Virus record (IMG/VR): IMGVR_UViG_3300017706_000806
Span: 1-55,825 of that record
Origin: a virus
Taxonomy: Duplodnaviria; Caudoviricetes
Direction: 5' to 3' (one strand)
DNA length: 55,825 bases
Below are positions 573-25,163 of the stretch, piece by piece. The position numbers were made by a program, and so were the translations under genes. The notes under the pieces were generated by a model that did not search any database, was not told the DNA's origin, and worked only from the letters and a program-made list of their open reading frames with translations. Position 1 is the stretch's first letter. Every line of letters starts with the position of its first letter.

Positions 573-727
573 CAGTAGAAGAACAGGAAGAAGCATTAAA
601 TAAATTAAACCTTATACTTGAGGATTTTCAAATGCTTAGAGATGGTGATTGGGTACCAGATACTGAATCATGTAATTCAAGTATAGACAATGTAACAAGT
701 ATTATATATATAATAGAGAATGGCTAA
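569..727 (+). CDS. 52-aa hypothetical protein (absent from the ORF track)
   Basis: MTVEEQEEALNKLNLILEDFQMLRDGDWVPDTESCNSSIDNVTSIIYIIENG*. It has an ATGA overlap with the upstream stop and overlaps the DnaB start. Confidence 0.65.
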   Translation: MTVEEQEEALNKLNLILEDFQMLRDGDWVPDTESCNSSIDNVTSIIYIIENG

Positions 728-1676
728 ACCAACAGAAGGTTGGGTGGGGCAGTATGCCGCATTCAATGAAGCATTGAAATATATGCAAGGCAGACAGAAT
801 GGGACTGAAAAGTCAATATATACACCTTGGCCTAAGTTTAATGATGCTGCCACTGATGGTTTAGAATGGAATACTCTAACGGTTATTGGTGGTAGGCCAG
901 GTTCAGGTAAAACTTTGATTAAAGATCAAATTATACGTGAGTCTTTTGCACTTAATCCAAATGATGACTTCAGAGTATTAGAATTTCAATTTGAGATGGT
1001 GGGTAGAACCTCAGCCATTAGAGAGTTTAGTTCTGTTACTGGTAAGACTTACAAAGAGTTATGTAGCGCAGGCAGTGTTTTAACTTCTGATGTACTAAAC
1101 ACATGTCATCAGTATGCTAAGGAAAGAGTTAAGAATCCGGTTGATATTATATCAACACCTATGACTGTAAATCAAATGCGTGAGCAAATTGATATGTATA
1201 TGAATATGCATAAAGGAAAAAAGACAATCATAACTCTTGATCATACTATGTTAGTAAAGAGAGCACCGTATCAGAATAGTACATTAGATATGTTATTTGA
1301 GTTAGGTGAGTTCTTTACACAATGTAAAAGAGATTATCCGTGTTTGTTTATTGCATTATCACAGCTTAATAGGAATATAGATAACCCAGACAGAGCAATC
1401 AATGGTAAGTATGGTAACTATATACTTGAGTCAGATATATTTGGTTCAGATGCTATGCTTCAACATGCTGACATGTTAATTGGTATCAATAGGCCTGCTA
1501 AACAGAAGATTGGATTCTATGGTCCTGACAGATATATCATTGAAAATGATAGAACTCTTGTATTACATTTTCTTAAAGCAAGAAATGGAGATGCAAGGAT
1601 GAGTTTTTTCAAGGCTAAGTTTGAACAGATGCAAATAGATGAAATGGCAACACCGGGACAACAAGAAAGAAGATAA
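720..1676 (+). CDS. dnaB: Replicative DNA helicase, DnaB/SF4 RecA-like core
   Basis: Walker A GGRPGSGKT, FEM, Walker B ITLDH, LSQLNR, SDxxGSDAMLQHAD and KARNG motifs. Confidence 0.92.
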   Translation: MAKPTEGWVGQYAAFNEALKYMQGRQNGTEKSIYTPWPKFNDAATDGLEWNTLTVIGGRPGSGKTLIKDQIIRESFALNPNDDFRVLEFQFEMVGRTSAIREFSSVTGKTYKELCSAGSVLTSDVLNTCHQYAKERVKNPVDIISTPMTVNQMREQIDMYMNMHKGKKTIITLDHTMLVKRAPYQNSTLDMLFELGEFFTQCKRDYPCLFIALSQLNRNIDNPDRAINGKYGNYILESDIFGSDAMLQHADMLIGINRPAKQKIGFYGPDRYIIENDRTLVLHFLKARNGDARMSFFKAKFEQMQIDEMATPGQQERR

Positions 1677-1695
1677 TAAATTAAAAAGTAAAACA

Positions 1696-2217
1696 ATGGG
1701 AATAACACCAGATCAACGTAAAAAGAAAGTAGCTGATTTAAGAGAAGAACATGAGGATTACTTTCAGACTGAAGGTAAAATTAATGCATTATATATTCCA
1801 AAGATGGCTTACAGGCCAGGAGGAAAAGATGAACTGCATATCAGTTTCTTTCCTAGTGAATTAGAAAAAGAAGAAAATATATATACAGAATTTGTAAGCA
1901 TAAGTTATGATTCTGAAGATCCTAAAAGGACACTGTATCTTTTGAAACATAATCCTCATTGGAGGGAAGAGTTTGAGCTTTCAACATCAAGCTCAGGGTT
2001 TCAAAGACATCTAGTGCCGGTAAGTGAACTGAAGGTAATTAATGATGTAACCAATAGAGGTAAATTAGATTTAGACTTTGCTGATTTACCAAATCCAGAT
2101 ACTAATAAACTTTCGGCAGGAACTGCTTCTGATAGTTCACTGGTAGATAAACTAGAGGAAATTAATCAAACATTAAAAACGTTAACCAAAGTAATAAATA
2201 ATAAATTAAATAAGTAA
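1696..2217 (+). CDS. Hypothetical protein
   Basis: Long ORF. ATG 1696 follows an A-rich leader and is preferred over 1639, which overlaps dnaB. Confidence 0.75.
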   Translation: MGITPDQRKKKVADLREEHEDYFQTEGKINALYIPKMAYRPGGKDELHISFFPSELEKEENIYTEFVSISYDSEDPKRTLYLLKHNPHWREEFELSTSSSGFQRHLVPVSELKVINDVTNRGKLDLDFADLPNPDTNKLSAGTASDSSLVDKLEEINQTLKTLTKVINNKLNK

Positions 2218-2218
2218 A

Positions 2219-2902
2219 ATGGCCCAAAGTGTATTAATCATTGCAGACTCAGGAACTGGTAAGTCTACATCAATTAGAAATTTAAATCCAGATGAAACGT
2301 TCATTATAAATATTGCTAATAAACCTTTACCATTCAAAGGATGGAAAACCAACTATACTTTAATAAGTAAAGAAAACAAAAAAGGAAACTTAGCATCAGC
2401 TTCATCTGCCGCAGGTATTATGAAAGCTATTAGTCATGTAGATCAAAACATGACACATATCAAAACGTTAGTTATAGATGACTGGCAGTATATGAGTTCT
2501 TTTGAGTACTTTGATAGAGCTAATGAGAAAGGTTATGACAAGTTTACTCAGATTGCAGCAAATCTTGCCCAAGTGGCTAAGATGCCTAAAGATCTAAGAG
2601 ATGACTTAACTGTTATATTCTTAACTCACTCTGAAGATTCAACTGATATCAATGGTAATAGAAAAATTAAAGCAAAAACCATTGGTAAAATGATAGACAA
2701 CACACTAACTTTGGAAGGTCTGTTCTCTATAGTTTTATTTGGAAAGGTAAATAAAAATGATGATGGTGAACTTGAATATGGTTTTGAGACTCAAAACAAT
2801 GGAGAGAACACATGTAAATCACCACAAGGTATGTTTGAAGATTTCTTCATCCCAAACAACCTGCAGTATGTAAAAGACTGTATTAAAAAGTATGAAGAGT
2901 AA
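2219..2902 (+). CDS. AAA_24/Sak4-like ATPase (ssDNA annealing recombinase)
   Basis: IIADSGTGKST Walker A, VIDD Walker B, LTH and KSPQGMF C-terminal motif. Followed by an SSB-like gene. Confidence 0.8.
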   Translation: MAQSVLIIADSGTGKSTSIRNLNPDETFIINIANKPLPFKGWKTNYTLISKENKKGNLASASSAAGIMKAISHVDQNMTHIKTLVIDDWQYMSSFEYFDRANEKGYDKFTQIAANLAQVAKMPKDLRDDLTVIFLTHSEDSTDINGNRKIKAKTIGKMIDNTLTLEGLFSIVLFGKVNKNDDGELEYGFETQNNGENTCKSPQGMFEDFFIPNNLQYVKDCIKKYEE

Positions 2903-2932: not shown

Positions 2933-3607
2933 ATGTTAAGTACAAGCGGAATGTCAGCCGGATCAGGCAAAGAAAAACCAGTAATTGAACCAGGTAATCA
3001 AGTAGTTAAAATTAACTCTGTTACTTTTGATCAAACACCATATGATGCAGATGCATATAATATTACATTAAACATTGAGAGTAAGCCTATGGATGGTGAA
3101 TTTCAAGGGTTTCTTGTAGATCAGAACAATCCTAACGGGCCACGTTATCAGGGTCAAGTTGGTAGAGTTAGATTTAGCCCTTATGCATATAAAGACACAA
3201 CTTTAGCTAACGGTAATGAAATTAGCCGTGACACAGAAGTTATGAAAGCAATGATCTTTTTATCTGAAGCACTAGGTAAAAGAGCTGAACTAGATAAGAT
3301 CAGTGCAAATACTATTGAAGAGTTTATGACAGCATGTAATTCATTGTTTTCTGGCTCAGAGTATGTAAATATGTGTTTAGGTTCACGTGAGTGGGAAAAC
3401 AAAGATGGTTATATAAACAATGATTTGTTTCTACCTAAGCTAAGTAAAGCTGGTGTACCCATTGAAGCATTGGGTACTGAACCAAGTAGACTCTTAACTT
3501 ATGACTCAAATAATAATAATCATTTGAGAAAAGTAATTAAGAAAGTTTCACCTACTACAAACAATTTTGAGCCTGCAAAGACAACAGGTGATGATTTTGA
3601 TTTGTAA
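2933..3607 (+). CDS. Putative single-stranded DNA-binding protein
   Basis: Follows the Sak4-like ATPase, has a beta-rich N-terminus and an acidic/hydrophobic tail (GDDFDL). Confidence 0.6.
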   Translation: MLSTSGMSAGSGKEKPVIEPGNQVVKINSVTFDQTPYDADAYNITLNIESKPMDGEFQGFLVDQNNPNGPRYQGQVGRVRFSPYAYKDTTLANGNEISRDTEVMKAMIFLSEALGKRAELDKISANTIEEFMTACNSLFSGSEYVNMCLGSREWENKDGYINNDLFLPKLSKAGVPIEALGTEPSRLLTYDSNNNNHLRKVIKKVSPTTNNFEPAKTTGDDFDL

Positions 3608-3629: not shown

Positions 3630-3660
3630 AAGGGGAGTGTAGTGCTCCCCTTTTTGTTTT
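3630..3660 (+). terminator. Rho-independent terminator
   Basis: AAGGGGAG(tgtagtg)CTCCCCTT stem followed by a T-run. Confidence 0.8.
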
Positions 3661-3674
3661 ATAAACAGGACCTT

Positions 3675-4649
3675 ATGTTTAGCACTAAAAATTTAGTATT
3701 GGATATGGAAGATATACCTAGTTATTGGGTGTTTCAACATTATCTAAATTTATCAGAGTCATTGACTGGTCAAGATGTTAAAATAATTTCTGTATTTAAT
3801 CCTTCTGAAAAGACGGCAAGCTTATGTATTTATGTAGATACTAATCTACAACAGTATAAGTTTAAATGCTTTTCTACAGGTAAAAGTGGTAATAAGATTG
3901 ATTTGATAAAGCATATGTTTGACTTAAGTTATTCATTAGCCGCCATGAAGGTTGTTAGTGACTATAACTTATATGTAAAGACAGAAGACTTTAAAGAAGT
4001 AAAACTTAAACCTGCTGCTAAATGGCAGATAGATTTTATAAAACACAGACCGTGGAGTGAAGAAGATGGCCGCTATTGGCTGTCCTATAGAATAGGAATG
4101 TCTATACTTAATGAATATAATGTAAAACCTATTGAGTACTATAACATGATTAAAGAAGAGAATAATCAAGTTAGTGCTCTTAAAGTAGAGGGGTTGCATA
4201 TTTATGGTTACTTTGATAGATACGGTGAAGTATATAAAATATATCAACCAAAAAGCAAACATAAATTTCATAAAGTAAATTCACACCTGCAGGGACTTGA
4301 TCAACTAAAGTATGATAAACCGTACTTGGTAATATGTTCATCCCTTAAAGATGCATTATGTCTTAAATCAATAGGTTATAACCTTGAAGTATTAGCACCA
4401 GATAGTGAGAATACAATGATAAAACCTCATGTAATTCAATATCTGAAAAAGAAATATGATAAGGTAATTACACTATTTGATAATGATGAAGCAGGTAAAA
4501 CAGCAATTGAAAAGTATGCAAAAGCATATAAAATTAATGGTTGTGCTTTAACTATATGTAAAGACATATCAGATGCAATGAAGGAGTATGGTTTTGACAA
4601 AGTGCATGCTGAGTTAAAACCTTTAATTAAAAAAACATTAAATAAATAA
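3675..4649 (+). CDS. DNA primase (DnaG-like, Toprim)
   Basis: Relic Zn-binding domain (EKTASL...FKCFSTG), YKIYQP, Toprim LFDNDEAG and KDISD. ATG 3675 is preferred because 3642 falls inside the terminator. Confidence 0.85.
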   Translation: MFSTKNLVLDMEDIPSYWVFQHYLNLSESLTGQDVKIISVFNPSEKTASLCIYVDTNLQQYKFKCFSTGKSGNKIDLIKHMFDLSYSLAAMKVVSDYNLYVKTEDFKEVKLKPAAKWQIDFIKHRPWSEEDGRYWLSYRIGMSILNEYNVKPIEYYNMIKEENNQVSALKVEGLHIYGYFDRYGEVYKIYQPKSKHKFHKVNSHLQGLDQLKYDKPYLVICSSLKDALCLKSIGYNLEVLAPDSENTMIKPHVIQYLKKKYDKVITLFDNDEAGKTAIEKYAKAYKINGCALTICKDISDAMKEYGFDKVHAELKPLIKKTLNK

Positions 4650-4650
4650 T

Positions 4651-5052
4651 ATGGAAAAAAACTCAAATAGGAAATGGTTTATACCTGGTTCTGTACCCTC
4701 CAGTAAAAATGGAAGAAGGTGGACAGGTAAGTACTTTATAGCAAGTAAAACTGTAGTAAATTACAGAAAGCTCACTAAGGAATATTATCAAAAATATGCC
4801 AGTGAGTTCAAAGAAGAGTTAGCAAAGCATAAGATGCCCGCTAAGATATCTTTTACTTTTGTTAGAGGTACACGTCATAAGTTTGACTATATAAATCCAG
4901 CTCAGACTGTGCAGGATGATATGGTTAAAGCAGGATGGATAGAAGATGATAATGCAGAATTTATCTTACCTGTTTTTATTCAGTACACATATGATAAAAA
5001 GAATCCAGGTGTATGGATAGAGATATTAGATAGTGAGCCTGATGACAAGTAA
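4651..5052 (+). CDS. RusA-like Holliday junction resolvase
   Basis: VPSSKN N-terminal motif, FDYINPAQTVQD and GWIEDDN acidic catalytic pattern. Confidence 0.75.
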   Translation: MEKNSNRKWFIPGSVPSSKNGRRWTGKYFIASKTVVNYRKLTKEYYQKYASEFKEELAKHKMPAKISFTFVRGTRHKFDYINPAQTVQDDMVKAGWIEDDNAEFILPVFIQYTYDKKNPGVWIEILDSEPDDK

Positions 5053-5326
5053 AGAATTTTTTCAAATTGTTAGACTGTTAAATGGATTACCAGAAGATTT
5101 TGACTTAGGAGTTAGTTGTTATAATAGTTTTGAGTCTAAGTCACCCATGTTTGATTTACTGTTAACTAAAGCACTGAGGTATAAAAAGAGATCCAGATTT
5201 ATCAAAGAAATGGAACTTAAGTATACACCTATAGAACTTACAGTTAAGGTAATAAACAGGAAGATAAATGGTGAGAAACAGAATTCTGTATACAAAAACA
5301 TTTTATTAGAAATTATGAATAATTAG
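5033..5326 (+). CDS. Hypothetical helical protein; N-terminus related to 7773 and 8816 products
   Basis: Coupled to both neighbours. The MTSKEFFQIVRLLNGLPEDFDLG segment matches a motif in the two downstream paralogues. Start could be ATG 5042. Confidence 0.7.
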   Translation: MSLMTSKEFFQIVRLLNGLPEDFDLGVSCYNSFESKSPMFDLLLTKALRYKKRSRFIKEMELKYTPIELTVKVINRKINGEKQNSVYKNILLEIMNN

Positions 5327-5328
5327 AT

Positions 5329-6492
5329 ATGGTAAATATACAAGACTTAGTTGCTAAGACAACTAAAAATTTAATACTTAGTGAGCCCTTTTACGGGCTT
5401 TTTTTGATTGGTATAAATAAACAATTCAGTGATAAGATACCTACAGCAGGTGTTAGTAAACACGGTATTGGCATGCAGTTAACAGTTAATCCTGAGTTTT
5501 ACACTAGTTTAAGTGAGGATCACAGGTCAGGACTGATTAAGCATGAACTTTTACACATAGCGTTTGGGCATTTGATAATGAGAGATCTTTATTCAAATCA
5601 TAAGCTATTTAATATAGCTGCTGATTTAGAGATTAATCAATATATACCAGAGCATAAGTTACCAGAAGGTGGGTTATTACTTTCTAGTTTTCCAGAGTTG
5701 AATCTTCCTAATAAAGCAGGTACTAAAAAGTACTATGAGTTATTGGAACAGGCACAGGAGGATGGAAGTAGTCCATCTTTGGATAGCTTAATGGATGAAA
5801 TGGATGGTGATAGTCAGTATTGTCATGGTACATGGGATGAATTTGATGAACTATCTGAAGCAGATAAGAAACTGGTACAGAAGCAAGTTGATCATCAGCT
5901 TAAAGAAGCAACAGAAGAAACAATTAAGAAACAGGGTACTGTACCTGGAGAGTTATCTGAACTTATTGAAAGACTGATGCATATTGAACCTGCTAAGTTT
6001 GATTGGAAAGGGTACCTTAGAAGATTTGTTGGTAATTCTAGTATAATATACACTAAAAAACTAAGACGTAAGTACAACAAACGTTATTCAGAAAACCCTG
6101 GCCTTAAGATTAAATTCAAGAATCATATACTGGTTGGTGTTGATACAAGTGGGTCTGTAAACAATGATGAGCTAAAGGAATTCTTTAGTGAACTTACGCA
6201 TATGCATAAGACAGGTCACAAGATTACAGTTGCACAGTGTGATACTAGATTAAATAGTGTAAAAGAATTCAATCCAAAGAAGGATTGGGAAATACATGGT
6301 CGTGGTGGTACAAGTTTCCAACCAGTGGTTGATCACTTTAATGAAAAAAGAGGAGCTTATACAGCTCTTATATATTTAACAGATGGTGAAGCTTATCCGC
6401 CAGAAGACTGTCCAAAGAACACTTTGTGGGTACTAAGCAGTGTTTCTAGTATGAATGATAGCTTACCCGGTTTAGTAATAAAATTAAATTAA
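5329..6492 (+). CDS. Zincin-like metallopeptidase fused to vWA domain (DUF2201-like)
   Basis: HELLH and NIAADLEIN in the N-terminal half. MIDAS DTSGS, QCDT, GRGGTSF and YLTDG in the C-terminal half. Confidence 0.9.
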   Translation: MVNIQDLVAKTTKNLILSEPFYGLFLIGINKQFSDKIPTAGVSKHGIGMQLTVNPEFYTSLSEDHRSGLIKHELLHIAFGHLIMRDLYSNHKLFNIAADLEINQYIPEHKLPEGGLLLSSFPELNLPNKAGTKKYYELLEQAQEDGSSPSLDSLMDEMDGDSQYCHGTWDEFDELSEADKKLVQKQVDHQLKEATEETIKKQGTVPGELSELIERLMHIEPAKFDWKGYLRRFVGNSSIIYTKKLRRKYNKRYSENPGLKIKFKNHILVGVDTSGSVNNDELKEFFSELTHMHKTGHKITVAQCDTRLNSVKEFNPKKDWEIHGRGGTSFQPVVDHFNEKRGAYTALIYLTDGEAYPPEDCPKNTLWVLSSVSSMNDSLPGLVIKLN

Positions 6493-6501
6493 TAGAAAAA
6501 A

Positions 6502-7770
6502 ATGGCACAAGTAAATTTAAATGTAACTGAGTTAAAAGGATTTGTAAATCACATAATTACAAACAACAGATTTTTGCAAGAACAAGGTAAGAATTCTGTA
6601 TCAGTAGAGGTAGTTGGTGAATCAGGTATTGGTAAAACATCTACTATTGTTGAACTGGCAAAGGAAAATGGTTTAAACTTTGTGAAGTTAAACTTAGCAC
6701 AGATAGAAGAGCTAGGTGATCTAGTAGGTTTTCCTGTTAGACAATTTCAAATGTATAAAGAGACAAAAGTTTCACCAAAGGCAAATGACATGTCTTATAC
6801 TGCAGCACAAAGAACGGCTGCATCATCTAATCTAGCACAAATTCAACATCAGGTAACAAAGAAGGTTGGTTTATGGGTTGATGAACTTGCTGTACAGGAG
6901 TATCTTAAAACAGGATACAAAATGACAGGTAAGAACAGAATGTCTTATTGTCCACCAGAGTGGATTGCTGATAAAAAATCAGGTGGTATCTTATTACTAG
7001 ATGACTGGAACCGTGCTGATGTACGTTTCATTCAAGCTGTGATGGAACTGATTGATCGTCAGAGTTATATCTCATGGACTCTTCCAAAAGATTGGCATAT
7101 AATGCTAACTGCAAATCCGGATAACGGAGACTATATGGTTAACAGTGTAGATAGTGCACAGAAGACCAGATATGTAACTGCTAATCTGAAGTTTGATATT
7201 AATGTATGGGCCCAATGGGCGGAAGGTGCAGGTATAGATACAAGATGTATCAACTTCTTGCTTCTTCATCCTGAGCTTGTAACTCAAGAAACTAATGCAA
7301 GATCTATTACTACATTCTTTAATGCAATATCAAGTTTTGATAGCTTTGAAGATAACCTTTCACTGATTCAGATGATAGGTGAGGGTAGTGTAGGAGATGC
7401 ATTTGCTTCTATGTTTACCACATTTATTAATAATAAACTTGATAAGTTAGTAACACCAAAAGATCTATTGACACATGATAGTCAACAGTATATACTTGGT
7501 GAACTTAGAGGGTGTATTGGTAAAGATGATACTTACCGTGCAGATATTGCATCAACTCTAGCAACACGTTTAGCTAACTATGCGGTTGTTTACAGTAAAG
7601 ACAATACTATAAGTCAGAAGATAACAGATAGACTAAAGACTTTATGTACGGAAGACTATTTTACTAATGACCTGAAGTATTTGATTGTAAGATCAATATT
7701 TGGTGGTAACAAGAAAAAGTTTAATAAATTAATGATGATCCCAGAGATTGTTAAAATGACAATGAAATAA
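6502..7770 (+). CDS. MoxR-like AAA+ ATPase
   Basis: GESGIGKT, GDLVGFP, Walker B LLLDDWNRA, sensor TANP and DSAQKTRY. Paired with a vWA gene. Confidence 0.88.
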   Translation: MAQVNLNVTELKGFVNHIITNNRFLQEQGKNSVSVEVVGESGIGKTSTIVELAKENGLNFVKLNLAQIEELGDLVGFPVRQFQMYKETKVSPKANDMSYTAAQRTAASSNLAQIQHQVTKKVGLWVDELAVQEYLKTGYKMTGKNRMSYCPPEWIADKKSGGILLLDDWNRADVRFIQAVMELIDRQSYISWTLPKDWHIMLTANPDNGDYMVNSVDSAQKTRYVTANLKFDINVWAQWAEGAGIDTRCINFLLLHPELVTQETNARSITTFFNAISSFDSFEDNLSLIQMIGEGSVGDAFASMFTTFINNKLDKLVTPKDLLTHDSQQYILGELRGCIGKDDTYRADIASTLATRLANYAVVYSKDNTISQKITDRLKTLCTEDYFTNDLKYLIVRSIFGGNKKKFNKLMMIPEIVKMTMK

Positions 7771-7772
7771 TT

Positions 7773-8819
7773 ATGGCAAATAAATCAGTATATCAAGATT
7801 TTGATGCTGATGCTTTAACTTACTTTGCATTAGAGAGTGACACTGTTTACGGTGTCCTCTCTAGTTCAGGGGAGTGCAATAAAGTATTATGCACACAAGA
7901 TCACACAACGTATGATAAAATAAACAGTATATTAACGGTCCCCACAGAGGATGACCAAACTTTTAGAACTAAAAAGAAAGCTTTTATATTACCTAAATGT
8001 AATGTATCACAAGATAGATTAAAGGCTGCTCTTAAAGAGCACAGTATAACTGTAACAAATGATTATGAATTAGCAGATCTTATAATTGGACATGAGGATA
8101 TCAGTACTCATACATTACAAAATGCGGAAAACATTCCTTCTACAGTAATGATGAATAAGATATGGAATTATGAAACTACATTAGGTGATGCAACAAAAGA
8201 TGGTGTTCTTAAAAGCGTATCAGATTCCGGACTAGAGTGTATTGTTACACCTAAAATTACAGATCATGTAATGTACTATAATATAGATATAGAAAATAGT
8301 TTATATGATAACTGGATGATCACTGGTATGGCTTTGAATTTAGCTCATATAATTGATACTACAAACGTTAGTGTTATTGATCCTGAGACTGTACTTCATG
8401 CGTCTGCTACTAAAATGATTCTTGATGAAGAGTTGCTTGCAGACCTTAAGAGTCAGTTGGATTCGTATAGGGATGATAAAGCTTTAGCTCTTAAAATTAT
8501 ACCAACCTTGGATTATAAGACAAACTATCACTTACTGTGGCAGTTTGCCCAAGATTGTAGTCAGATAATATATGCTGACAATAGAGACAAAGACTTACAG
8601 TACTGGATAAAGGAATCTGACTTTCACAGTCTGATGCGCAGGAGTGCACAAGACATGATACTGTGGTTAGAGGAACAGGAAAAGCTAGATAAAGTAACAT
8701 TTAGATATTTGGAACCTATTGTAAGGAAAGAAATATCTATAGATAACAGAGATCTATATACGTTTAAAGTCTCTGTTAAAAAAGAGTATCAGAAATATTT
8801 AATAAAAGAAAAATTATGA
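7773..8819 (+). CDS. Hypothetical protein with BRCT-like segment (paralogue A)
   Basis: KKAFILPKCNVSQDRLKAALKEHSITVTNDYELADLII follows the BRCT beta-alpha-beta pattern. Aligns by eye with 8816..9946. Confidence 0.7.
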   Translation: MANKSVYQDFDADALTYFALESDTVYGVLSSSGECNKVLCTQDHTTYDKINSILTVPTEDDQTFRTKKKAFILPKCNVSQDRLKAALKEHSITVTNDYELADLIIGHEDISTHTLQNAENIPSTVMMNKIWNYETTLGDATKDGVLKSVSDSGLECIVTPKITDHVMYYNIDIENSLYDNWMITGMALNLAHIIDTTNVSVIDPETVLHASATKMILDEELLADLKSQLDSYRDDKALALKIIPTLDYKTNYHLLWQFAQDCSQIIYADNRDKDLQYWIKESDFHSLMRRSAQDMILWLEEQEKLDKVTFRYLEPIVRKEISIDNRDLYTFKVSVKKEYQKYLIKEKL

Positions 8820-9946
8820 AAAAATTATATAGAATGAATGCAGGATTGGAACAGCATCCTGTAATATTTAATAAACAAGCAAGTAAAGATTGGTTTAGGA
8901 TTGAAGAATCTGGTGACTATCATATGGGTGCTGCTGAGTATTGGCATCTTAGAGCGGAAGATATATCTGGGTTTAATATACCTATTAGAGATGTTAAAAA
9001 TTCTCCAATTGTTTTGCAAGGGAAAAAGATATACAGATATCCATCTTTAGATCTACCTAGACAAAAAGTTGATTTACTTAAAGAAAACTTTGATGTTAAA
9101 GTCACTAGAAATAGAGATAAAGCTGATCTTTGCATAACATCTTTTAAACATATTAAAAGTTTAATAGATATAAGCTGGATAGACATTGTATCATTTAGGG
9201 AGTTTTATTCTATATGTTTAGACATGAAAGAAGAAGACTTATTAGATAGTTTAGCATTGGATCAACTAAGGACTACGTTAAGTGAAATGGATAAAGATTC
9301 TGTTGTTGCCCTTCCCAAGTATCATTCTTATGGTAAGAGTGATGACGTGATAGAGTGGTATGATAAGTTTACAACAATTTGTCACAACCGGAAAAATGTT
9401 TACAAACATGCTAGCAGAAGTTTTATATTGCATGCTGAGGACTATTCATCTTACTTGGGCTTAATAGATCCAAGTAATGATACAGTATTTGACACTGATG
9501 TTTGTAATGTAATAGATGAAGATTTGGCTGTACTGGATAATTCGGAGTATGATACAATAGAGTCTATGATTTGTAATGATGGAATAGAAAACAGGACACT
9601 TGCATTAGAAATGCTAGCAAATTGTAATCTTAACAGTTCATTTGATGTAGTTTCTGGTATATTCTATTGGCATTATGAGTGGTGCAAATCCACAAGCAAT
9701 TGGAATACAGCCAATGTAAAGACGTTAAGAAATAGATTAGCTGAATATCAAGGTGATCATCCAAGAAACAGTGTTCATTCTCATGACAGATATATCATGG
9801 CATTACGTAACAGCAATAAACTTACAGAATTTGCAATTAACAAAACCAGAGAATCACTGTACAAAAATGTATTAGGTAATGTTGTTGGAAAAGATGCAAG
9901 CGTATTCAGCGTTGACTTTGAAAATTTAAAACTAAAAGAAGAATAA
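8816..9946 (+). CDS. Hypothetical protein with BRCT-like segment (paralogue B)
   Basis: LQGKKIYRYPSLDLPRQKVDLLKENFDVKVTRNRDKADLCI. ATGA overlap with paralogue A. Confidence 0.7.
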   Translation: MKKLYRMNAGLEQHPVIFNKQASKDWFRIEESGDYHMGAAEYWHLRAEDISGFNIPIRDVKNSPIVLQGKKIYRYPSLDLPRQKVDLLKENFDVKVTRNRDKADLCITSFKHIKSLIDISWIDIVSFREFYSICLDMKEEDLLDSLALDQLRTTLSEMDKDSVVALPKYHSYGKSDDVIEWYDKFTTICHNRKNVYKHASRSFILHAEDYSSYLGLIDPSNDTVFDTDVCNVIDEDLAVLDNSEYDTIESMICNDGIENRTLALEMLANCNLNSSFDVVSGIFYWHYEWCKSTSNWNTANVKTLRNRLAEYQGDHPRNSVHSHDRYIMALRNSNKLTEFAINKTRESLYKNVLGNVVGKDASVFSVDFENLKLKEE

Positions 9947-9947
9947 G

Positions 9948-10946
9948 ATGAATAGAAATTTAGAAAAAGAAGAGCAGTTTTACTTGAATGATAAGTTCAA
10001 GTTTAGCTACTCTTCATTAAACAAACTTTTGTTTTCACCATCCTTATTTTATAAGGACTATATTTTAAATGACCGTGAGGTTAGAACAGACAAACATCTT
10101 GTAGAAGGTAAACTTATACATTGTTTGGTGTTTGAACCTGAAGAACTGAATAATAAATTTAACATTGTTCCGGGTAAAAGCCCTAGTGACAATATTAGAA
10201 AGGTGCTAAAAGACATGTCTCTGCATACTGATGCAGAAACATTAGCAAGTTGTGAGGACTCTATAATTTTAGATTCTCTTAAGAACCTTAATTTGTTTCA
10301 GTCACTCAAAGCAGATGAGTCAAGAATTGCTAAAGTTAGAACAGAAGACAATGAGCCTTATTGGAAGTTTCTTAGTAACACTAACGTTGATGTTGTTGAT
10401 CAGGATACTTTATTAAAGTGTCAGGAGCAAGCAGATAACATCAAGAGTAATGGTGAAGTTATGTCTATATTTGGAGAAGTTGAAACTGATTTTGAGTTAG
10501 ATCCAATTGAAACCTACGCAGAAAAGTATCTGACGTCAGGCTTGTCTAACATGCCTTTTGGTTTACACGGTTACATAGATTACTATAAAGTTAATCATAA
10601 AGATAAACTGGTAACAATATGTGATCTTAAGACAACAAGCAAATCAATATCTGACTTTAAAGATACTGTTGACTATTATAACTATTGGTTGCAGGCAGCT
10701 ATATATTGCAAGTTAGTTTATGAAAATCTATCTAAGCAGGTAGATGACATTGACTCTTACAAAATATTGTTTAAGTTTGTTGTTGTAGACAAGTACAATC
10801 AAGTATATCCTTTTGATGTAAGTGAAGAAACACTAAACAACTGGGCAATGTCTCTATTAAATGTAATAAAAGCTGCTGAATATCATTATAATGAGAGAAA
10901 CTACTCTCTTCCCTATGAATTTCTAGTAGAAAAAGTTAAATTATAG
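9948..10946 (+). CDS. PD-(D/E)xK exonuclease (RecE/ExoVIII-like)
   Basis: SYSSL, GKLIH, GYID...DLKT and LQAAIY motifs. Confidence 0.85.
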   Translation: MNRNLEKEEQFYLNDKFKFSYSSLNKLLFSPSLFYKDYILNDREVRTDKHLVEGKLIHCLVFEPEELNNKFNIVPGKSPSDNIRKVLKDMSLHTDAETLASCEDSIILDSLKNLNLFQSLKADESRIAKVRTEDNEPYWKFLSNTNVDVVDQDTLLKCQEQADNIKSNGEVMSIFGEVETDFELDPIETYAEKYLTSGLSNMPFGLHGYIDYYKVNHKDKLVTICDLKTTSKSISDFKDTVDYYNYWLQAAIYCKLVYENLSKQVDDIDSYKILFKFVVVDKYNQVYPFDVSEETLNNWAMSLLNVIKAAEYHYNERNYSLPYEFLVEKVKL

Positions 10947-10947
10947 T

Positions 10948-11523
10948 ATGAGTTCTGTATACACAGATTATTTTCAAAAGAGTAAAGTCTTTTTATACCC
11001 TTTATTGCAGTTTAAAAAAGGCTTATCATATGTTCCTAGGCAAACATACATTGCTATGGATCATATGTACTCTTTTGATGATTATCGGTTCCTGTGTGAG
11101 TATCATGTTAAGATGTCAGAAAAGTTCAAGGAGTTCTTTAATACACATATTAAAAATCATCCCAGGTTTGATCATCATATTGATTTAGGGGATGATAAAC
11201 ATGTGTTTGTGTTTGACTTTGTTACCTTTAAAAGTGACTATAAAAGATTTCTAGTTGGTAAGTACTCACATTTTACATTAGAGTCTAAGTTAATTATCTT
11301 AGATTTTTTTAGTGAGGGTAAGTCATCTGAATATATAGAAGTCTTTTTATCACCTGATGGGTATCATGCAGACTACGCTGATGCATTGGATGTAGATATA
11401 GATATCATAGAAAAGGTATCTGAATTATGCAGTGTACCAGATCTTGATAAAGAGACCTTAATTAATAAAAATACACAATTACTTAGTTTATTAGAAACAT
11501 GTAATGTATATTTGTCTAAATAA
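10948..11523 (+). CDS. Hypothetical protein
   Basis: 191-aa ORF tightly packed in the operon. Confidence 0.8.
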   Translation: MSSVYTDYFQKSKVFLYPLLQFKKGLSYVPRQTYIAMDHMYSFDDYRFLCEYHVKMSEKFKEFFNTHIKNHPRFDHHIDLGDDKHVFVFDFVTFKSDYKRFLVGKYSHFTLESKLIILDFFSEGKSSEYIEVFLSPDGYHADYADALDVDIDIIEKVSELCSVPDLDKETLINKNTQLLSLLETCNVYLSK

Positions 11524-11532
11524 AAAATTAAT

Positions 11533-11949
11533 ATGGCACAAGTAGGACAAAATATGATGTTAGTAAATTCTAGTTTTAGAAATGCTAAATCATTTACAAT
11601 GATCCCTGTGAGTATTGACTCACCATATGTAGAAGCTATGTTTGATCCAACGTCAGGCATTTTAGCAGTTATCAGTAAAGTAATGAAGCAATCATATCAT
11701 ATGGTTGCTAAGTTAGATGATAACGGTCAACCAATAAGATTAAAAACTCCTAATCAGCAAACTGGTAAAACAGTTAAAGAAGAGAGAAGATTGGTTGATA
11801 CCTTTTCTGAGTTTTATTTATCTGATGAAAAGGATATTGAAAACTTTATCAATATATTTGCAATGAATGCATCAGCTTTTGATTACAAAAGTTTTTTCGT
11901 AGATGCTAAAGAGACAAAAGTTTCTAATATCATAATGCCTGGTTCATAA
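11533..11949 (+). CDS. Hypothetical protein
   Basis: 138-aa ORF with an A-rich leader. Confidence 0.8.
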   Translation: MAQVGQNMMLVNSSFRNAKSFTMIPVSIDSPYVEAMFDPTSGILAVISKVMKQSYHMVAKLDDNGQPIRLKTPNQQTGKTVKEERRLVDTFSEFYLSDEKDIENFINIFAMNASAFDYKSFFVDAKETKVSNIIMPGS

Positions 11950-12007: not shown

Positions 12008-12036
12008 AAGAGCCCATTGATTTGGGCTTTTTTTTT
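12008..12036 (+). terminator. Rho-independent terminator
   Basis: AAGAGCCCA-ttgatt-TGGGCTTTT followed by a long T-run. Confidence 0.85.
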
Positions 12037-12054
12037 GGCTCTAAATTTTAAATT

Positions 12055-14359: not shown

Positions 14360-14662
14360 ATGGATTATTTTGAATTAGAAGCAGTCATAGAAACATGGGC
14401 TCAAGAAAAAGGTATTCTTGCTAAAGCTACACCAATGGCCCAGGCACTGAAGACACTAGAAGAAACAACAGAGCTTTGTACGGCCATCAATAATGATGAC
14501 CGTGCAGAGATTATAGATGCTATGGGTGACATAATGGTCACCTTGATTATACAAGCAAAGATGCAAGATCTTTCTTTAGAAGGCTGTTTAGAGTCAGCTT
14601 ACAATGTCATATCCAAACGTACAGGTAAAATGGTTAATGGTCAATTTGTTAAAGACAATTGA
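14360..14662 (+). CDS. MazG-like NTP pyrophosphohydrolase
   Basis: KTLEETTEL...DAMGD acidic pattern and the AYNVISKRTGKMVNGQFVK tail typical of phage MazG-like proteins. Confidence 0.85.
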   Translation: MDYFELEAVIETWAQEKGILAKATPMAQALKTLEETTELCTAINNDDRAEIIDAMGDIMVTLIIQAKMQDLSLEGCLESAYNVISKRTGKMVNGQFVKDN

Positions 14663-15492
14663 TTAAGATCCAGAAGACTAAAACTTTAATTACTAAGACC
14701 AATAATAATAGTAGTAACTGCATAGCTCCCAATATCATCTATGGATGTTTTGGAGGCTGTGTAGATACCTATTGTTATATGTCAAGATACAATGGTAAAA
14801 GAGTTTTTGTAAATAAAAACGTTGATGACATTTATCAGTCTGTTGTAGAATGGGAAAAAGAATTTGTCAAAGTCCCTGATCAACAAGACCCTATATATAC
14901 TATGGTAGACATTGCTTGCAACTCAGATTTAGTTCTGATGCAGAAGCATATGCCTGAACCATTGATTGATTATCTTAAACGTTATGATGATCATCCTCAA
15001 CTAAATAGTACTATGGCTACTAAATATCCTGGTTTGTTGAACCTTAATGTAAAAACGTTCAACAAAAAACCAAGAGTACGTGTAAGTCTTATGCCTCAGA
15101 AGTATTCTAATATATTAGAACCTAAGATGCAAAAGATAGAGAGCCGTATAGCTGATGTTAACCGGCTCAAGGAGTTAGGATGGGAAGTTCATTTAAATTA
15201 TAGCCCTCTAGTTTTTTATCCTGGATGGAAAGAAGAATATGATAATCTTTTTTCTATGGTTAAAGATGCTGCTGGAGAAAACAAATGTGAAGTCATTGCT
15301 TTAACTAACCATGTTAAACAAATGAATAAAGCTAAACCAGAGGCAAGAGAGTTAATGAGAAGATCATATGAGATAAAGAATCAGTCAGGAGTTATGAGAT
15401 ATCCTTTAGAACATAAGGGAAGATTGTTGTCTGAATTTAAGGAAATTTATTCAAAGTATTTTTCTATAAAAACAATCAGATATATATTTTAA
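14659..15492 (+). CDS. Spore photoproduct lyase-like radical SAM protein (SplB family)
   Basis: IAPNIIYGCFGGCVDTYCY, VFVN, DIACNSD, ATK, RVRVSLMP, LEP and NYSPLV. TTG start overlaps the MazG stop. Confidence 0.8.
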   Translation: MIKIQKTKTLITKTNNNSSNCIAPNIIYGCFGGCVDTYCYMSRYNGKRVFVNKNVDDIYQSVVEWEKEFVKVPDQQDPIYTMVDIACNSDLVLMQKHMPEPLIDYLKRYDDHPQLNSTMATKYPGLLNLNVKTFNKKPRVRVSLMPQKYSNILEPKMQKIESRIADVNRLKELGWEVHLNYSPLVFYPGWKEEYDNLFSMVKDAAGENKCEVIALTNHVKQMNKAKPEARELMRRSYEIKNQSGVMRYPLEHKGRLLSEFKEIYSKYFSIKTIRYIF

Positions 15493-16502: not shown

Positions 16503-16555
16503 GGAAGACCAACCAACTAGAGGGAGTTTTATATTCCCTCTAGGTCTTCTTTTTT
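16503..16555 (+). terminator. Long bulged hairpin / terminator
   Basis: GGAAGACC...TAGAGGGAG-ttttata-TTCCCTCTA-GGTCTTCT followed by a T-run. Confidence 0.75.
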
Positions 16556-24972: not shown

Positions 24973-25156
24973 AAAGTTCATTTCATTCTTTCTAGTTTGG
25001 TATAGTCAGCAAATGGCTATACCATTCTGGATTGTGGGTCACGTACACCTTCACTTCGTAAGTTGGCATGATCTATATGAGTATATACTATCAATCATAT
25101 TACACTTAATGGTGGCAATAGGATTCTGGATAGATTGGAAAAAAAGCAAAAAATAA
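24959..25156 (+). CDS. Small His/Trp-rich membrane protein
   Basis: Two to three hydrophobic stretches, with GHVHLH, WHD and LHL. Confidence 0.6.
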   Translation: MTYFKKFISFFLVWYSQQMAIPFWIVGHVHLHFVSWHDLYEYILSIILHLMVAIGFWIDWKKSKK

Positions 25157-25163
25157 AAATAAT

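What the first reader, a model, noticed from the sequence alone, without database searches (positions are those of the whole stretch)
5033..9946. Five-gene MoxR / vWA-peptidase cluster with three related partner proteins
Seen: an unbroken run of 97-aa protein, HExxH+vWA, MoxR AAA+, paralogue A and paralogue B, with gaps of 9 nt or less, inserted between the resolvase and the exonuclease. Established: MoxR-vWA pairs act as ATP-driven chaperones or remodellers, and zincin-fused vWA partners occur in phages. Inference: the three flanking genes are dedicated adaptors or substrates, forming a phage-encoded remodelling/proteolysis machine. It might disable host defence or repair complexes during replication. 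I know of no functional description of this five-part arrangement.
Basis: partly seen in the sequence, partly recalled or inferred. Interest (0 to 1): 0.8.

Follow-up and report, generated by a model that had tools for sequence, protein, structure and literature searches.

The report
Phage MoxR-vWA pair with three related partners
An uncultivated marine phage carries the ATPase plus peptidase-vWA gene pair known from N4-like phages, flanked by three proteins that share one new helical domain, inside its DNA-replication operon; what the set does is still unknown.

Summary
Five co-directional ORFs (5033-9946) with gaps of -20 to +9 nt lie between a RusA resolvase and a PD-(D/E)XK exonuclease.

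**The known pair.** ORF2 is a DUF2201 zincin plus vWA/MIDAS protein. ORF3 is a divergent MoxR/dynein-type AAA+ ATPase. Together they match the N4 gp25/gp24 core pair of Schitoviridae. All catalytic motifs are invariant, and the two are the best conserved genes of the module.

**The three partners.** Their relatedness is real but only visible with profiles. The 97-aa protein is a free copy of a helical (ARM/HEAT-like) domain found in the C-terminal half of A and B. A and B also share a BRCT-like domain. B evolves fast. In 38 of 122 distinct relatives B ends in the bacterial SSB tip motif (DLPF).

**Conservation.** The block is kept in all 122 distinct gene sets of a clade of about 110-125 kb marine phages. 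The whole primase-to-polymerase module is kept too, so synteny cannot isolate a five-gene machine. None of 459 phage records with the peptidase-vWA gene has a detectable A or B.

**Verdict.** This is a new clade-specific variant of a known phage pair. A physical link between the partners and the pair is inferred, not shown. The one complex prediction gave no verdict.

The parts
5033..5326 (+). p97: small helical protein, a stand-alone copy of the helical domain ('X domain') found in A and B. Fast-evolving.
   Evidence: ORF. No Pfam, PHROG, NCBIfam or PADLOC family. Alignment A3 of 36 sequences. Median 27% identity to the window across 104 unique relatives. The clade p97 HMM hits B at about residues 220-360 and A at about 215-275 with up to 30 bits, against at most 6.3 bits for shuffled or reversed targets.
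5329..6492 (+). Zincin-like metallopeptidase (DUF2201_N, aa 11-236) fused to a vWA/MIDAS domain (DUF2201, aa 268-372); N4 gp25-type.
   Evidence: Pfam, both domains above cut-off. phrog_1314 at E 4e-64. tblastn matches 459 phage records, one annotated 'N4 gp25-like protein'.
5542..5571 (+). HELLHIAFGH: HExxH motif (H72, E73, H76) plus G80 and H81.
   Evidence: H72, E73, H76, G80 and H81 are invariant in 117 of 117 sequences.
6142..6156 (+). MIDAS motif DxSxS (D272, S274, S276).
   Evidence: D272, T273, S274 and S276 are invariant in 117 of 117 sequences.
6502..7770 (+). Divergent MoxR/dynein-related (AAA_5-like) AAA+ ATPase; N4 gp24-type.
   Evidence: phrog_1297 at E 5.5e-35. Pfam AAA families all below cut-off. 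Best solved-structure sequence match is the Midasin AAA domains, E 1.5e-9. BLASTP E 8e-11 to the Shigella phage B2 'MoxR-like ATPase' and 4e-10 to the AD45-P1 COG0714 protein. Median 86% identity in the clade.
6616..6639 (+). Walker A GESGIGKT (aa 39-46).
   Evidence: Invariant in 108 of 108 sequences.
6991..7017 (+). Walker B and following residues, LLLDDWNRA (aa 164-172).
   Evidence: Kept in 106-107 of 108 sequences.
7773..8819 (+). A: clade-specific protein with a BRCT-like motif (aa ~67-105) and the X helical domain (aa ~214-324); distant paralogue of B.
   Evidence: ORF; no family. The A profile hits 15 of 150 distant B representatives at E <= 1e-3, collinearly in two regions. AlphaFold model is poor (pLDDT 55; only aa ~214-324 confident). 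Its top BFVD hit is the same protein as for B, at E 0.018.
8816..9946 (+). B: N-terminal beta domain, BRCT-like domain (aa ~66-140), alpha/beta insert, ARM/HEAT-like X domain (aa ~238-316) and C-terminal helices with an acidic tip. Fast-evolving.
   Evidence: Model pLDDT 87. VIA-align: aa 66-237 match BRCT domains at Z 5-6.3; aa 238-316 match ARM/HEAT repeats at Z about 5. 694 representatives at E <= 1e-3. Median 33% identity. Tails.
4651..5052 (+). Upstream flank: RusA-like Holliday junction resolvase. Overlaps p97 by 20 nt.
9948..10946 (+). Downstream flank: PD-(D/E)XK exonuclease. Starts 1 nt after B.
3642..11949 (+). The tightly packed stretch that contains the five genes: primase, RusA, p97, vWA, MoxR, A, B, exonuclease, 191-aa gene, 138-aa gene.
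   Evidence: Junctions of at most 9 nt throughout. Terminator-like hairpins on the + strand at 3630-3652 (upstream end) and 12024-12041 (weak, downstream). Same order in related loci.

Best explanation
**What is shown.**
- The cluster is a clade-specific elaboration of the N4 gp24/gp25-type phage pair: a MoxR/dynein-type AAA+ ATPase plus a zincin-peptidase-vWA(MIDAS) protein.
- Both enzymes keep every catalytic motif and are the slowest-evolving genes of the module.
- The pair is bracketed by three members of one new domain family. p97 is the helical X domain alone. A is a BRCT-like domain plus X. B is a beta domain, a BRCT-like domain, an alpha/beta insert, X, and a conserved extreme C-terminal tip.
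- In about a third of lineages the B tip is DLPF, the motif of the bacterial SSB C-terminal tip.
- The block sits in the middle of a replication/recombination operon.

**What is inferred.**
- The ATPase ring powers the vWA-peptidase as in other MoxR-vWA systems: the MIDAS site grips an acidic ligand and the zincin cleaves.
- The X domain is the shared handle by which p97, A and B meet this engine.
- A and B use their BRCT-like domains, and the SSB-like tip of B, to point the engine at DNA-bound or SSB-associated protein complexes during the replication phase.
- p97, lacking any targeting part, would act as a regulator or competitor.
- Whether A and B are adaptors or clients is open.
For: **Identity of the pair.** Searches identify it. 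gp24 and gp25 are core genes of N4-like phages, are middle transcripts in N4 (PMC4193335), and have no stated function there (PMC4193335 and PMC7650795, passages read).

**Motifs and conservation.** HExxH, MIDAS, Walker A and Walker B are invariant. Median identity to the window: MoxR 86%, vWA 81%, polymerase 77%, primase 62%, A 60%, B 33%, p97 27%.

**p97, A and B are related.**
- The clade p97 HMM scores up to 30 bits on the same region of B and A, against at most 6.3 bits on shuffled or reversed targets. 333 of 396 targets are above the best control: A 71 of 122, B 124 of 124, B representatives 138 of 150.
- An HMM from the close lineage only (A3) puts 95 of 396 above control.
- The p97 set is clean: 84-157 aa ORFs, all just upstream of vWA.
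- The A profile hits 15 of 150 B representatives at E <= 1e-3 in two collinear regions.
- Domain-wise hhalign against column shuffles: A_N-B_N reached by 1 of 60 shuffles, p97-A_C by 0 of 60, p97-B_C by 1 of 60.

**Folds.** BRCT-like and ARM/HEAT-like (20 of 50 rows carry 'BRCT' in the title).

**Linkage.**
- All five genes, in order, in 157 of 168 loci that span RusA to exonuclease.
- 115 of 122 distinct gene sets have all five.
- The arrangement persists in two far relatives with MoxR at 47-49% identity.
- Related proteins lie on both sides of the pair, and the A/B start and stop codons overlap by 4 nt.

**SSB tip.** 38 of 122 distinct B proteins end in [LIMV][PA]F, 31 of them in DLPF. DDDIPF and DDDLPF are the SSB tips that bind partner proteins (PMC5531588, passages read).

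**Replication context elsewhere.**
- A DNA helicase lies next to the pair in Moorella phage MTATph1.
- In AR9 the pair follows an early promoter and lies about 2 kb from a topoisomerase II gene.
- A helicase lies about 4.6 kb downstream in Shigella phage B2.
Against: - No binding is shown.
- Linkage is uninformative, because primase, RusA, exonuclease, the 191-aa and 138-aa genes and the polymerase are just as syntenic.
- The pair works without A, B or p97 in every other phage group examined. That was 5 of 5 neighbourhoods, 314 ORFs, best E 0.07. A and B gave no tblastn match in 50,697 phage records.
- The window's own B lacks the DLPF tip; it ends KLKEE.
- In the two most distant loci A is barely detectable (a 167-aa ORF at E 3e-9) or not detectable.
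- BRCT and ARM matches are at Z 5-6.3, below the level the tool calls clear, and no Pfam BRCT hit exists.
- The A_C-B_C hhalign score was reached by 9 of 60 shuffles.
- Iyer et al. propose a virion-assembly role for such pairs in jumbo phages (PMC7824862).
- In roseophage RPP1, virion protein genes lie near the gp24/gp25 homologues (PMC4193335).
Confidence: 0.4

Rival explanations
1. There are two independent functions that merely share an operon. The MoxR-vWA-peptidase pair does whatever N4 gp24/gp25 do. A, B and p97 are separate replication or recombination accessory proteins (BRCT-like scaffolds with an SSB-like tip) with no physical link to the pair.
For: - The whole module is syntenic, so adjacency proves nothing.
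- The pair is widespread without A, B or p97.
- BRCT-like folds and an SSB-tip motif point to DNA transactions by themselves (PMC5531588).
- B abuts the exonuclease gene.
Against: - Three members of one domain family bracket the pair on both sides, rather than sitting together elsewhere in the module.
- This exact order holds in 115 of 122 distinct gene sets and in relatives with MoxR at only 47-49% identity, while RusA is not detected there.
Confidence: 0.3
2. This is an assembly chaperone. The pair, with the X-domain proteins as co-chaperones, folds or processes a large phage protein or virion part, for example the giant 4874-aa and 1876-aa proteins encoded in the same window. Iyer et al. 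proposed this role for jumbo-phage MoxR-vWA-peptidase pairs.
For: - PMC7824862 (passage read) proposes virion assembly with peptidolytic processing.
- An archaeal-virus MoxR-vWA system is cited there for tail assembly.
- PMC4193335 (passage read) reports virion protein genes near the gp24/gp25 homologues of roseophage RPP1.
- The window encodes very large ORFs with no family match.
Against: - Here the pair lies on the opposite strand and about 17 kb from the large ORFs, inside replication genes.
- In N4 the genes are middle transcripts (PMC4193335). In AR9 they follow an annotated early promoter.
- BRCT-like domains and an SSB-like tip are not expected of capsid or tail chaperones.
Confidence: 0.15
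3. One reading: a counter-defence or host-takeover protease that removes host defence or repair complexes, with the fast-evolving B and p97 as host-specific targeting subunits.
For: - B (median 33%) and p97 (27%) diverge far faster than the enzymes (86% and 81%), as expected at a host interface.
- The DLPF tip copies the bacterial SSB tip, not the tail (G[DS]DF[DE]L) of the phage's own putative SSB-like protein. This could serve to engage host SSB-binding enzymes.
Against: - No match to any defence-related model.
- No target is known.
- Fast evolution also fits relaxed constraint.
- The tip is missing in about two thirds of lineages, including this window.
Confidence: 0.1
4. An auxiliary metabolic gene pair of the CobS/CobT cobalt-chelatase kind, or an 'HNH endonuclease' as the PHROG and RefSeq labels say.
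For: - Weak match of the ATPase to phrog_249 'porphyrin biosynthesis' (E 7.7e-4).
- phrog_1314 and many RefSeq records label the vWA protein 'HNH endonuclease'.
Against: - The partner protein carries a zincin HExxH domain and passes both DUF2201 models.
- Pfam listed no other family for it except a weak PhageMetallopep match, so no HNH family came up.
- The phrog_249 match is 30 orders of magnitude weaker than the phrog_1297 match.
Confidence: 0.02

Closest known systems
N4 gp24 (AAA+ ATPase) / gp25 (vWFA) core pair of N4-like phages (Schitoviridae)
   Same: The peptidase-vWA protein matches 459 phage records, most of the named ones N4-like; one is annotated 'N4 gp25-like protein'. The ATPase matches the adjacent 'MoxR-like ATPase' of N4-like Shigella phage B2 at E 8e-11. 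The genes are adjacent and lie among early or middle DNA-metabolism genes.
   Different: Identity is only 23-30%. Gene order here is vWA then ATPase, as in Alteromonas phage AD45-P1; it is reversed in B2, AR9 and the Moorella phage. The ATPase carries an insert of about 70 residues between Walker A and Walker B, also seen in AD45-P1. No N4-like neighbourhood examined has p97, A or B.
MoxR-vWA chaperone pair with N-terminal metallopeptidase on the vWA protein, in group 2.2 jumbo phages (Iyer et al. 2021, PMC7824862)
   Same: Same two-protein architecture. Jumbo phages (RaK2-like, AR9/PBS1) are among the tblastn matches.
   Different: That paper proposes virion assembly and describes no accessory family. 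Here the pair is inside a replication operon of an estimated 110-125 kb phage genome and is bracketed by three related proteins.
Cellular MoxR-vWA systems (RavA-ViaA, CbbQ-CbbO, NorQ-NorD, Midasin/Rea1), as listed in PMC7159879
   Same: AAA+ ring plus a MIDAS-bearing adaptor. The best solved-structure sequence match of the ATPase is Midasin.
   Different: No cellular client gene is nearby. The vWA protein carries a zincin. The ATPase fails the Pfam AAA_5 cut-off.
vWA-MoxR-VMAP ternary conflict systems (Kaur et al. 2020, PMC7159879)
   Same: A MoxR-vWA core with additional dedicated, fast-diversifying partner proteins, occasionally with a metallopeptidase fused to the vWA protein.
   Different: Those are cellular defence systems defined by a VMAP protein. 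A, B and p97 match no known family, there was no PADLOC hit, and the context is a phage replication module.
BRCT-domain scaffolds and the bacterial SSB C-terminal tip
   Same: B aa 66-237 align to BRCT domains (Z 5-6.3, about 75 residues). 31 of 122 distinct B relatives end in DLPF, like the DDDLPF tip of Gram-positive SSB (PMC5531588).
   Different: No sequence-level BRCT match. No OB fold. The tip is absent from the window's own B.

Membership tests
DUF2201 metallopeptidase-vWA proteins (Pfam PF13203 + PF09967; N4 gp25-like) | Both Pfam domains above the gathering score, in N- to C-terminal order | tested here: met
   71.3 bits against 23.2 and 60.6 bits against 26.4; residues 11-236 and 268-372.
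DUF2201 metallopeptidase-vWA proteins (Pfam PF13203 + PF09967; N4 gp25-like) | Zincin HExxH motif present and conserved | tested here: met
   H72, E73 and H76 (plus H81) in 117 of 117 sequences.
DUF2201 metallopeptidase-vWA proteins (Pfam PF13203 + PF09967; N4 gp25-like) | MIDAS DxSxS motif in the vWA domain | tested here: met
   D272, S274 and S276 in 117 of 117 sequences. The motif definition is recalled.
MoxR / dynein-related AAA+ ATPases (Pfam AAA_5 / AAA_3; COG0714) | Pfam AAA_5 or AAA_3 above the gathering score | tested here: not met
   AAA_5 scores 14.5 bits against a cut-off of 22, and AAA scores 19.2 against 21.2. I therefore file it as MoxR-like and divergent, not as a curated member.
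MoxR / dynein-related AAA+ ATPases (Pfam AAA_5 / AAA_3; COG0714) | Walker A, and Walker B followed by NR (DExNR-type; recalled) | tested here: met
   GESGIGKT and LLLDDWNRA, kept in 106-108 of 108 sequences.
MoxR / dynein-related AAA+ ATPases (Pfam AAA_5 / AAA_3; COG0714) | Significant similarity to recognised members | tested here: met
   Midasin AAA domains at E 1.5e-9. Shigella phage B2 'MoxR-like ATPase' (IPR011704) at E 8e-11. AD45-P1 COG0714 protein at E 4e-10.
MoxR / dynein-related AAA+ ATPases (Pfam AAA_5 / AAA_3; COG0714) | Adjacent gene for a vWA/MIDAS partner | tested here: met
   9 nt apart. Adjacent in the related loci shown.
BRCT domain (for A and B) | Sequence match to a BRCT family model | tested here: not met
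   No Pfam BRCT hit for A or B or for four distant B relatives. No solved-structure sequence match.
BRCT domain (for A and B) | BRCT fold | tested here: inconclusive
   B model aa 66-237 against BRCT chains: Z 5-6.3, rmsd about 3 A, 70-80 residues aligned. 20 of 50 rows carry 'BRCT' in the title, but Z is under 8. The model of A is too poor in this part.
ARM/HEAT helical repeat (X domain) | Fold match to ARM/HEAT repeats | tested here: inconclusive
   B aa 238-316 against AP-complex, beta-catenin and cohesin SA2 repeats: Z 4.6-5.4. This is below the level the tool treats as clear for helical proteins.
SSB C-terminal tip motif (DDD[IL]PF) | Extreme C-terminus ends in D-[IL]-P-F | tested here: not met
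   The window's B ends KLKEE. The motif is met in 31 (DLPF) of 122 distinct relatives and in many of the 150 representatives.
vWA-MoxR-VMAP ternary systems (PMC7159879) | Presence of a VMAP protein with a VMAP-C domain | not testable with these tools
   No VMAP model is in the libraries at hand. A, B and p97 hit nothing in Pfam, NCBIfam or PADLOC.

The most novel reading that the evidence does not exclude
The five genes form a phage 'segregase-protease' for DNA-bound proteins, analogous in logic to eukaryotic Cdc48/p97 with the Wss1/Spartan zincins. An AAA+ ring (MoxR) and a zincin-vWA subunit are steered by a private family of adaptors. The shared X domain docks on the engine. The BRCT-like domains and the SSB-mimicking tip of the adaptors take the engine to replication forks or to host SSB-partner enzymes. 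There it extracts and cleaves host or stalled complexes so that phage replication can proceed. p97 is the adaptor-less competitor that sets the level of activity.
Probability: 0.1. Interest if true: 0.85.

Novelty: new variant of a known kind. Interest (0 to 1): 0.55.

Why it matters
- **An unexplained core pair.** gp24 and gp25 are core genes of N4-like phages, listed without a function in both papers I read (PMC4193335, PMC7650795). Homologues also occur in several jumbo phages. The papers I could search gave no tested function for this pair.
- **A new lead.** This marine clade adds a family of three related partners. Two of them have BRCT-like domains, and one often carries the SSB tip. This points to DNA replication or repair as the place to look, rather than virion assembly, and it gives concrete mutants and peptides to test.
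- **An undescribed family.** The A/B/p97 family has at least 694 representatives at the 50% identity level for B alone. It has no Pfam, PHROG or NCBIfam model.
- **A common phage.** Close relatives of A were found on hundreds of contigs, many from marine surveys.

Tried and rejected
**Pairwise and whole-profile comparisons.** BLASTP and whole-profile hhalign of p97, A and B were not significant. Only domain-wise and clade-wide profiles gave signal.

**Searches for close relatives in known phages.**
- megablast of the region against phages: no match.
- tblastn of A, B and the distant B relative P0345 against phages: no match.

**Homologue searches.**
- The search for homologous proteins with the A and B profiles listed only close relatives.
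- The 'longer' search for fused forms of B found none. The tool itself calls that weak evidence.

**Other look-ups.**
- ESM Atlas for A and B: nothing usable.
- Solved-structure sequence searches with the A, B and p97 profiles and with the vWA protein: nothing significant.
- Foldseek of the B model against PDB: no match at E <= 0.001.
- PADLOC: no hits.

**Binding test.** Complex prediction of the vWA protein (alignment A8) with p97 (alignment A3) returned 'no answer', score 0.00 against a mark of 0.32, and the controls were not run. This is no evidence either way.

**Structure of A.** The model of A was poor (pLDDT 55), so its N-terminal half is not interpreted.

**Host.** The genome-contig scan gave phage-sized contigs binned into MAGs labelled Pseudomonadales, Campylobacteraceae, Rickettsiales, Micavibrio and Bathyarchaeia. 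These labels contradict each other, so I draw no host from them.

**Extra gene between RusA and p97.** I checked whether the B tail type goes with the extra gene of about 650 nt that some loci carry there. It does not; both gap classes occur with both tail types.

**Contexts I could not obtain.** The genome contexts of the four BFVD structural relatives of B could not be fetched with the tools at hand. Whether the clade is crAss-like was not tested.

**Papers.**
- Passages read with 'find': PMC7824862, PMC7159879, PMC4193335, PMC7650795, PMC5531588.
- PMC5143411 (a DDLPF-bearing ClpXP degron) was seen only in a search listing and is not used as evidence.
- No supplements were opened. Supplementary gene tables of the N4-like and jumbo-phage papers may hold more on gp24/gp25 neighbours.

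Full report
**1. The observation.**

One search lists five + strand ORFs at the stated coordinates: p97 at 5033-5326, a 387-aa protein at 5329-6492, a 422-aa protein at 6502-7770, A at 7773-8819 and B at 8816-9946. They are joined by -20, +2, +9, +2, -4 and +1 nt to each other and to the flanking RusA (4651-5052) and PD-(D/E)XK exonuclease (9948-10946). The flanks are identified.

The same packing continues on both sides, from the primase (3642) to the 138-aa gene ending at 11949. Terminator-like hairpins on the + strand lie at 3630-3652, weakly at 12024-12041, and at 16517-16543. So the five genes are the middle of a longer unit, not an operon of their own.

The window is a 55.8 kb IMG/VR viral contig estimated at 49% complete. 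Contigs bearing close relatives reach about 112-125 kb.

**2. The two recognisable genes.**

The 387-aa protein passes both Pfam models of the DUF2201 family: a putative metallopeptidase domain (residues 11-236) and a VWA-like domain (residues 268-372). It matches phrog_1314 at E 4e-64. The PHROG label 'HNH endonuclease' is not borne out by Pfam.

The 422-aa protein matches phrog_1297 'ATPase' at E 5.5e-35. It reaches no Pfam AAA cut-off (AAA_5 scores 14.5 bits against 22). Other evidence places it as a divergent MoxR/dynein-type AAA+ ATPase:
- Its best solved-structure sequence match is the AAA domains of Midasin (E 1.5e-9).
- It aligns to the 'MoxR-like ATPase' (IPR011704) of N4-like Shigella phage B2 at E 8e-11.
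- It aligns to the COG0714 protein of Alteromonas phage AD45-P1 at E 4e-10.

tblastn with the vWA protein finds 459 phage records at E <= 1e-3 (368 at 1e-5). Most are N4-like podoviruses. Others include RaK2-like and AR9/PBS1 jumbo phages, cyanophage S-TIM5, the AD45 phages, a Thermus phage and a Moorella phage. One record is annotated 'N4 gp25-like protein'.

[quoted passage not shown] They are middle transcripts in N4, and no function is given (PMC4193335 and PMC7650795, passages). Iyer et al. noted the MoxR-vWA pair with an N-terminal metallopeptidase in group 2.2 jumbo phages and proposed a role in virion assembly (PMC7824862, passage).

**3. The clade.**

Pattern scans with A found 123 relatives in viral contigs, of which 80 were kept. 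Scans with distant B groups gave 112 more loci.

All of them show the same order wherever the locus reaches: primase, RusA, sometimes one or two extra small genes, p97, vWA, MoxR, A, B, exonuclease, the 191-aa gene, the 138-aa gene, polymerase.

- Of 168 loci that contain both RusA and the exonuclease, 157 have all five genes in order. 11 lack a p97 HMM hit (loci not deduplicated).
- After deduplication there are 122 distinct MoxR+A+B sets. 115 have a p97 hit. 6 of the other 7 have an unassigned small ORF at the same place.

Median identity to the window:

| Gene | Median identity |
|---|---|
| MoxR | 86% |
| vWA | 81% |
| polymerase | 77% |
| 138-aa gene | 73% |
| RusA | 71% |
| exonuclease | 65% |
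| primase | 62% |
| A | 60% |
| 191-aa gene | 48% |
| B | 33% |
| p97 | 27% |

HExxH (plus H81), the MIDAS DxSxS, Walker A and Walker B are invariant or nearly so. The two enzymes are therefore under the strongest constraint in the module, and two of their three neighbours under the weakest.

Two MAG contigs with MoxR at only 47-49% identity still have p97, vWA, MoxR, B and the exonuclease in order. In one of them A is only weakly detected, and in the other it is not detected.

**4. Are the three partners related?**

Direct comparisons say no. Three further tests say yes.

- **Intermediates between A and B.** The B profile finds 694 representatives at E <= 1e-3 among 1.84 billion cluster representatives. 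The A profile hits 15 of the best 150 of these at E <= 1e-3 (best 6.8e-7, for a set of 150). The hits fall in two collinear regions: A 43-116 on B-family about 41-114, and A 195-272 on B-family about 203-283.
- **Domain-wise hhalign against column-shuffled profiles.** The N-terminal motif of A and B was reached by 1 of 60 shuffles, p97 against the C-terminal half of A by 0 of 60, and p97 against that of B by 1 of 60. The A-B C-terminal comparison was weak (9 of 60).
- **A clade-wide p97 HMM.**
  - It scores up to 30 bits on B (residues about 220-360) and A (about 215-275). The best shuffled or reversed target reaches 6.3 bits.
  - 333 of 396 targets exceed the best control: A 71 of 122, B 124 of 124, B representatives 138 of 150.
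  - With the HMM of the close lineage alone, 95 of 396 do.
  - The p97 training set consists only of 84-157 aa ORFs directly upstream of vWA, so it is not contaminated by B.

I conclude that p97 is a free-standing copy of a helical domain (here called 'X') that forms the C-terminal half of A and B. A and B are distant paralogues that also share an N-terminal motif of about 40 residues.

**5. Folds.**

B folds with confidence (pLDDT 87).

- Foldseek against PDB finds nothing significant.
- The wide VIA-align search puts residues 66-237 on BRCT domains (Z 5-6.3, rmsd about 3 A, 70-80 residues). 20 of the 50 rows shown carry 'BRCT' in their title.
- It puts residues 238-316 on ARM/HEAT repeats (Z about 5). 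These Z values are below what the tool regards as clear, so I call the folds BRCT-like and ARM/HEAT-like.
- Against predicted viral structures, B has four significant matches (E 3e-10 to 1.5e-6). All are uncharacterised proteins of 360-396 residues. One is from a crAss-like virus, and two are from one and the same Podoviridae sp. genome, which looks like another A/B-type pair.

The model of A is poor (pLDDT 55). Its top viral hit is the same protein as for B, but only at E 0.018.

**6. The tip of B.**

Many distant B representatives end in DDLPF or DLPF. Among the 122 distinct gene sets, 38 end in [LIMV][PA]F, 31 of them in DLPF. Most others end in I-x-[ND]-[ED]. The window's own B ends KLKEE.

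DDDIPF and DDDLPF are the C-terminal tips of bacterial SSB, through which SSB binds its partner proteins (PMC5531588, passages).

The phage's own 224-aa protein between the Sak4-like annealing protein and the primase has a different tail. That tail is G[DS]DF[DE]L, in 122 of 123 distinct sequences. This protein matches no family; I take it to be a possible SSB only from its position and acidic tail. The DLPF tip therefore resembles the bacterial tip rather than this phage tail. That it serves to reach host SSB partners is an inference.

**7. Does the set travel together outside the clade?**

No.
- A, B and the distant relative P0345 have no tblastn match in the 50,697 phage records.
- The neighbourhoods of the pair in AD45-P1, Moorella phage MTATph1, Vibrio phage 1.150.O, AR9 and Shigella phage B2 hold no ORF matching the A, B or p97 HMMs (314 ORFs, best E 0.07).

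In those phages the pair is followed or preceded by unannotated proteins of 175-669 residues. I could not fold them, so analogous partners cannot be excluded.

Replication genes are often close by:
- a helicase directly next to the pair in the Moorella phage;
- in AR9, an early promoter just before the pair and a topoisomerase II gene about 2 kb upstream;
- a helicase about 4.6 kb downstream in B2.

**8. Reading.**

Shown: the identities, the motifs, the family relation of p97, A and B, the invariance of the block, and its place in a replication operon.

Inferred: that the X domain is a common handle to the MoxR-vWA-peptidase engine, and that the BRCT-like parts and the SSB-like tip aim it at DNA-associated complexes.

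- The main support for a functional unit is that three members of one family bracket the pair on both sides. This arrangement survives where other module genes change.
- The main weakness is that all of it lies in one syntenic module, and that no binding evidence exists; one search gave no verdict.

I rate the functional-unit reading at 0.4. The rivals are independent functions at 0.3, an assembly-chaperone role at 0.15, a counter-defence role at 0.1, and metabolic or HNH readings at 0.02.

**9. Novelty.**

The pair is known. Its partners are not. I found no Pfam, PHROG, NCBIfam or PADLOC family for them. I found no paper on the arrangement in these searches: 'DUF2201' gave 4 papers, none on function; 'MoxR, vWA, phage, metallopeptidase' gave 5; 'COG3864' gave 0; 'crAss-like, MoxR' gave 0; and the N4-like/gp25 search gave 6. 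I therefore class it as a new variant of a known kind.

Noticed in passing
window 27031-55784, minus strand: A run of very large ORFs of 1876, 4874, 1124, 949 and 724 aa (27031-32661, 32688-47312, 47324-50698, 50758-53607, 53610-55784), none with a PHROG match. Their size and arrangement recall the giant virion proteins or virion RNA polymerases of N4-like and crAss-like phages. This resemblance is recalled, not tested.
   Followed up: partly
window 2933-3607 (+): A 224-aa protein between the Sak4-like annealing protein and the primase, with no family match. Its extreme C-terminus G[DS]DF[DE]L is kept in 122 of 123 distinct relatives. It may be the phage's own SSB-like protein with an acidic tail.
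   Followed up: partly
window 5329-6492 and public records: phrog_1314 and many RefSeq phage records label this metallopeptidase-vWA protein 'HNH endonuclease'. Pfam gives DUF2201_N plus DUF2201 and lists no HNH family for it. The label looks like a propagated misannotation.
   Followed up: partly
window 5383-5400 (+): A terminator-like hairpin followed by a T run lies inside the first 25 codons of the vWA gene. It could be chance or an attenuator.
   Followed up: no
window 14659-15492 and 15543-16430 (+): A spore-photoproduct-lyase-like protein (Pfam SPL, E 3.7e-17) and a DUF932 protein (E 8.4e-17) follow the DNA polymerase.
   Followed up: no
window 720-2902, 23992-26789 (+): The rest of the replication and nucleotide module: DnaB-like helicase, Sak4-like annealing protein, and ribonucleotide reductase small and large subunits. 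The DNA polymerase is at most 35% identical to that of any phage in the collection, the best matches being Vibrio phages.
   Followed up: partly
L200, L203 (MAG contigs of 114,697 and 120,283 bases): Whole-phage-sized contigs of this clade are binned into bacterial MAGs labelled Pseudomonadales and Rickettsiales. Other fragments sit in MAGs labelled Campylobacteraceae, Micavibrio and Bathyarchaeia. The labels disagree, so these are probably binning errors and give no host.
   Followed up: no
L204 5986-7650; L205 7223-8281: In the two most divergent loci the ATPase ORF is 555 aa (about 130 aa longer), or A is replaced by two short ORFs of 185 and 167 aa. A may be fused, split or decaying there, or these may be assembly errors.
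   Followed up: no
L086-L197, between RusA and p97: Many relatives carry one to three extra small ORFs (gaps of about 530-1130 nt) between RusA and p97 that the window lacks. Their presence does not track the tail type of B.
   Followed up: partly
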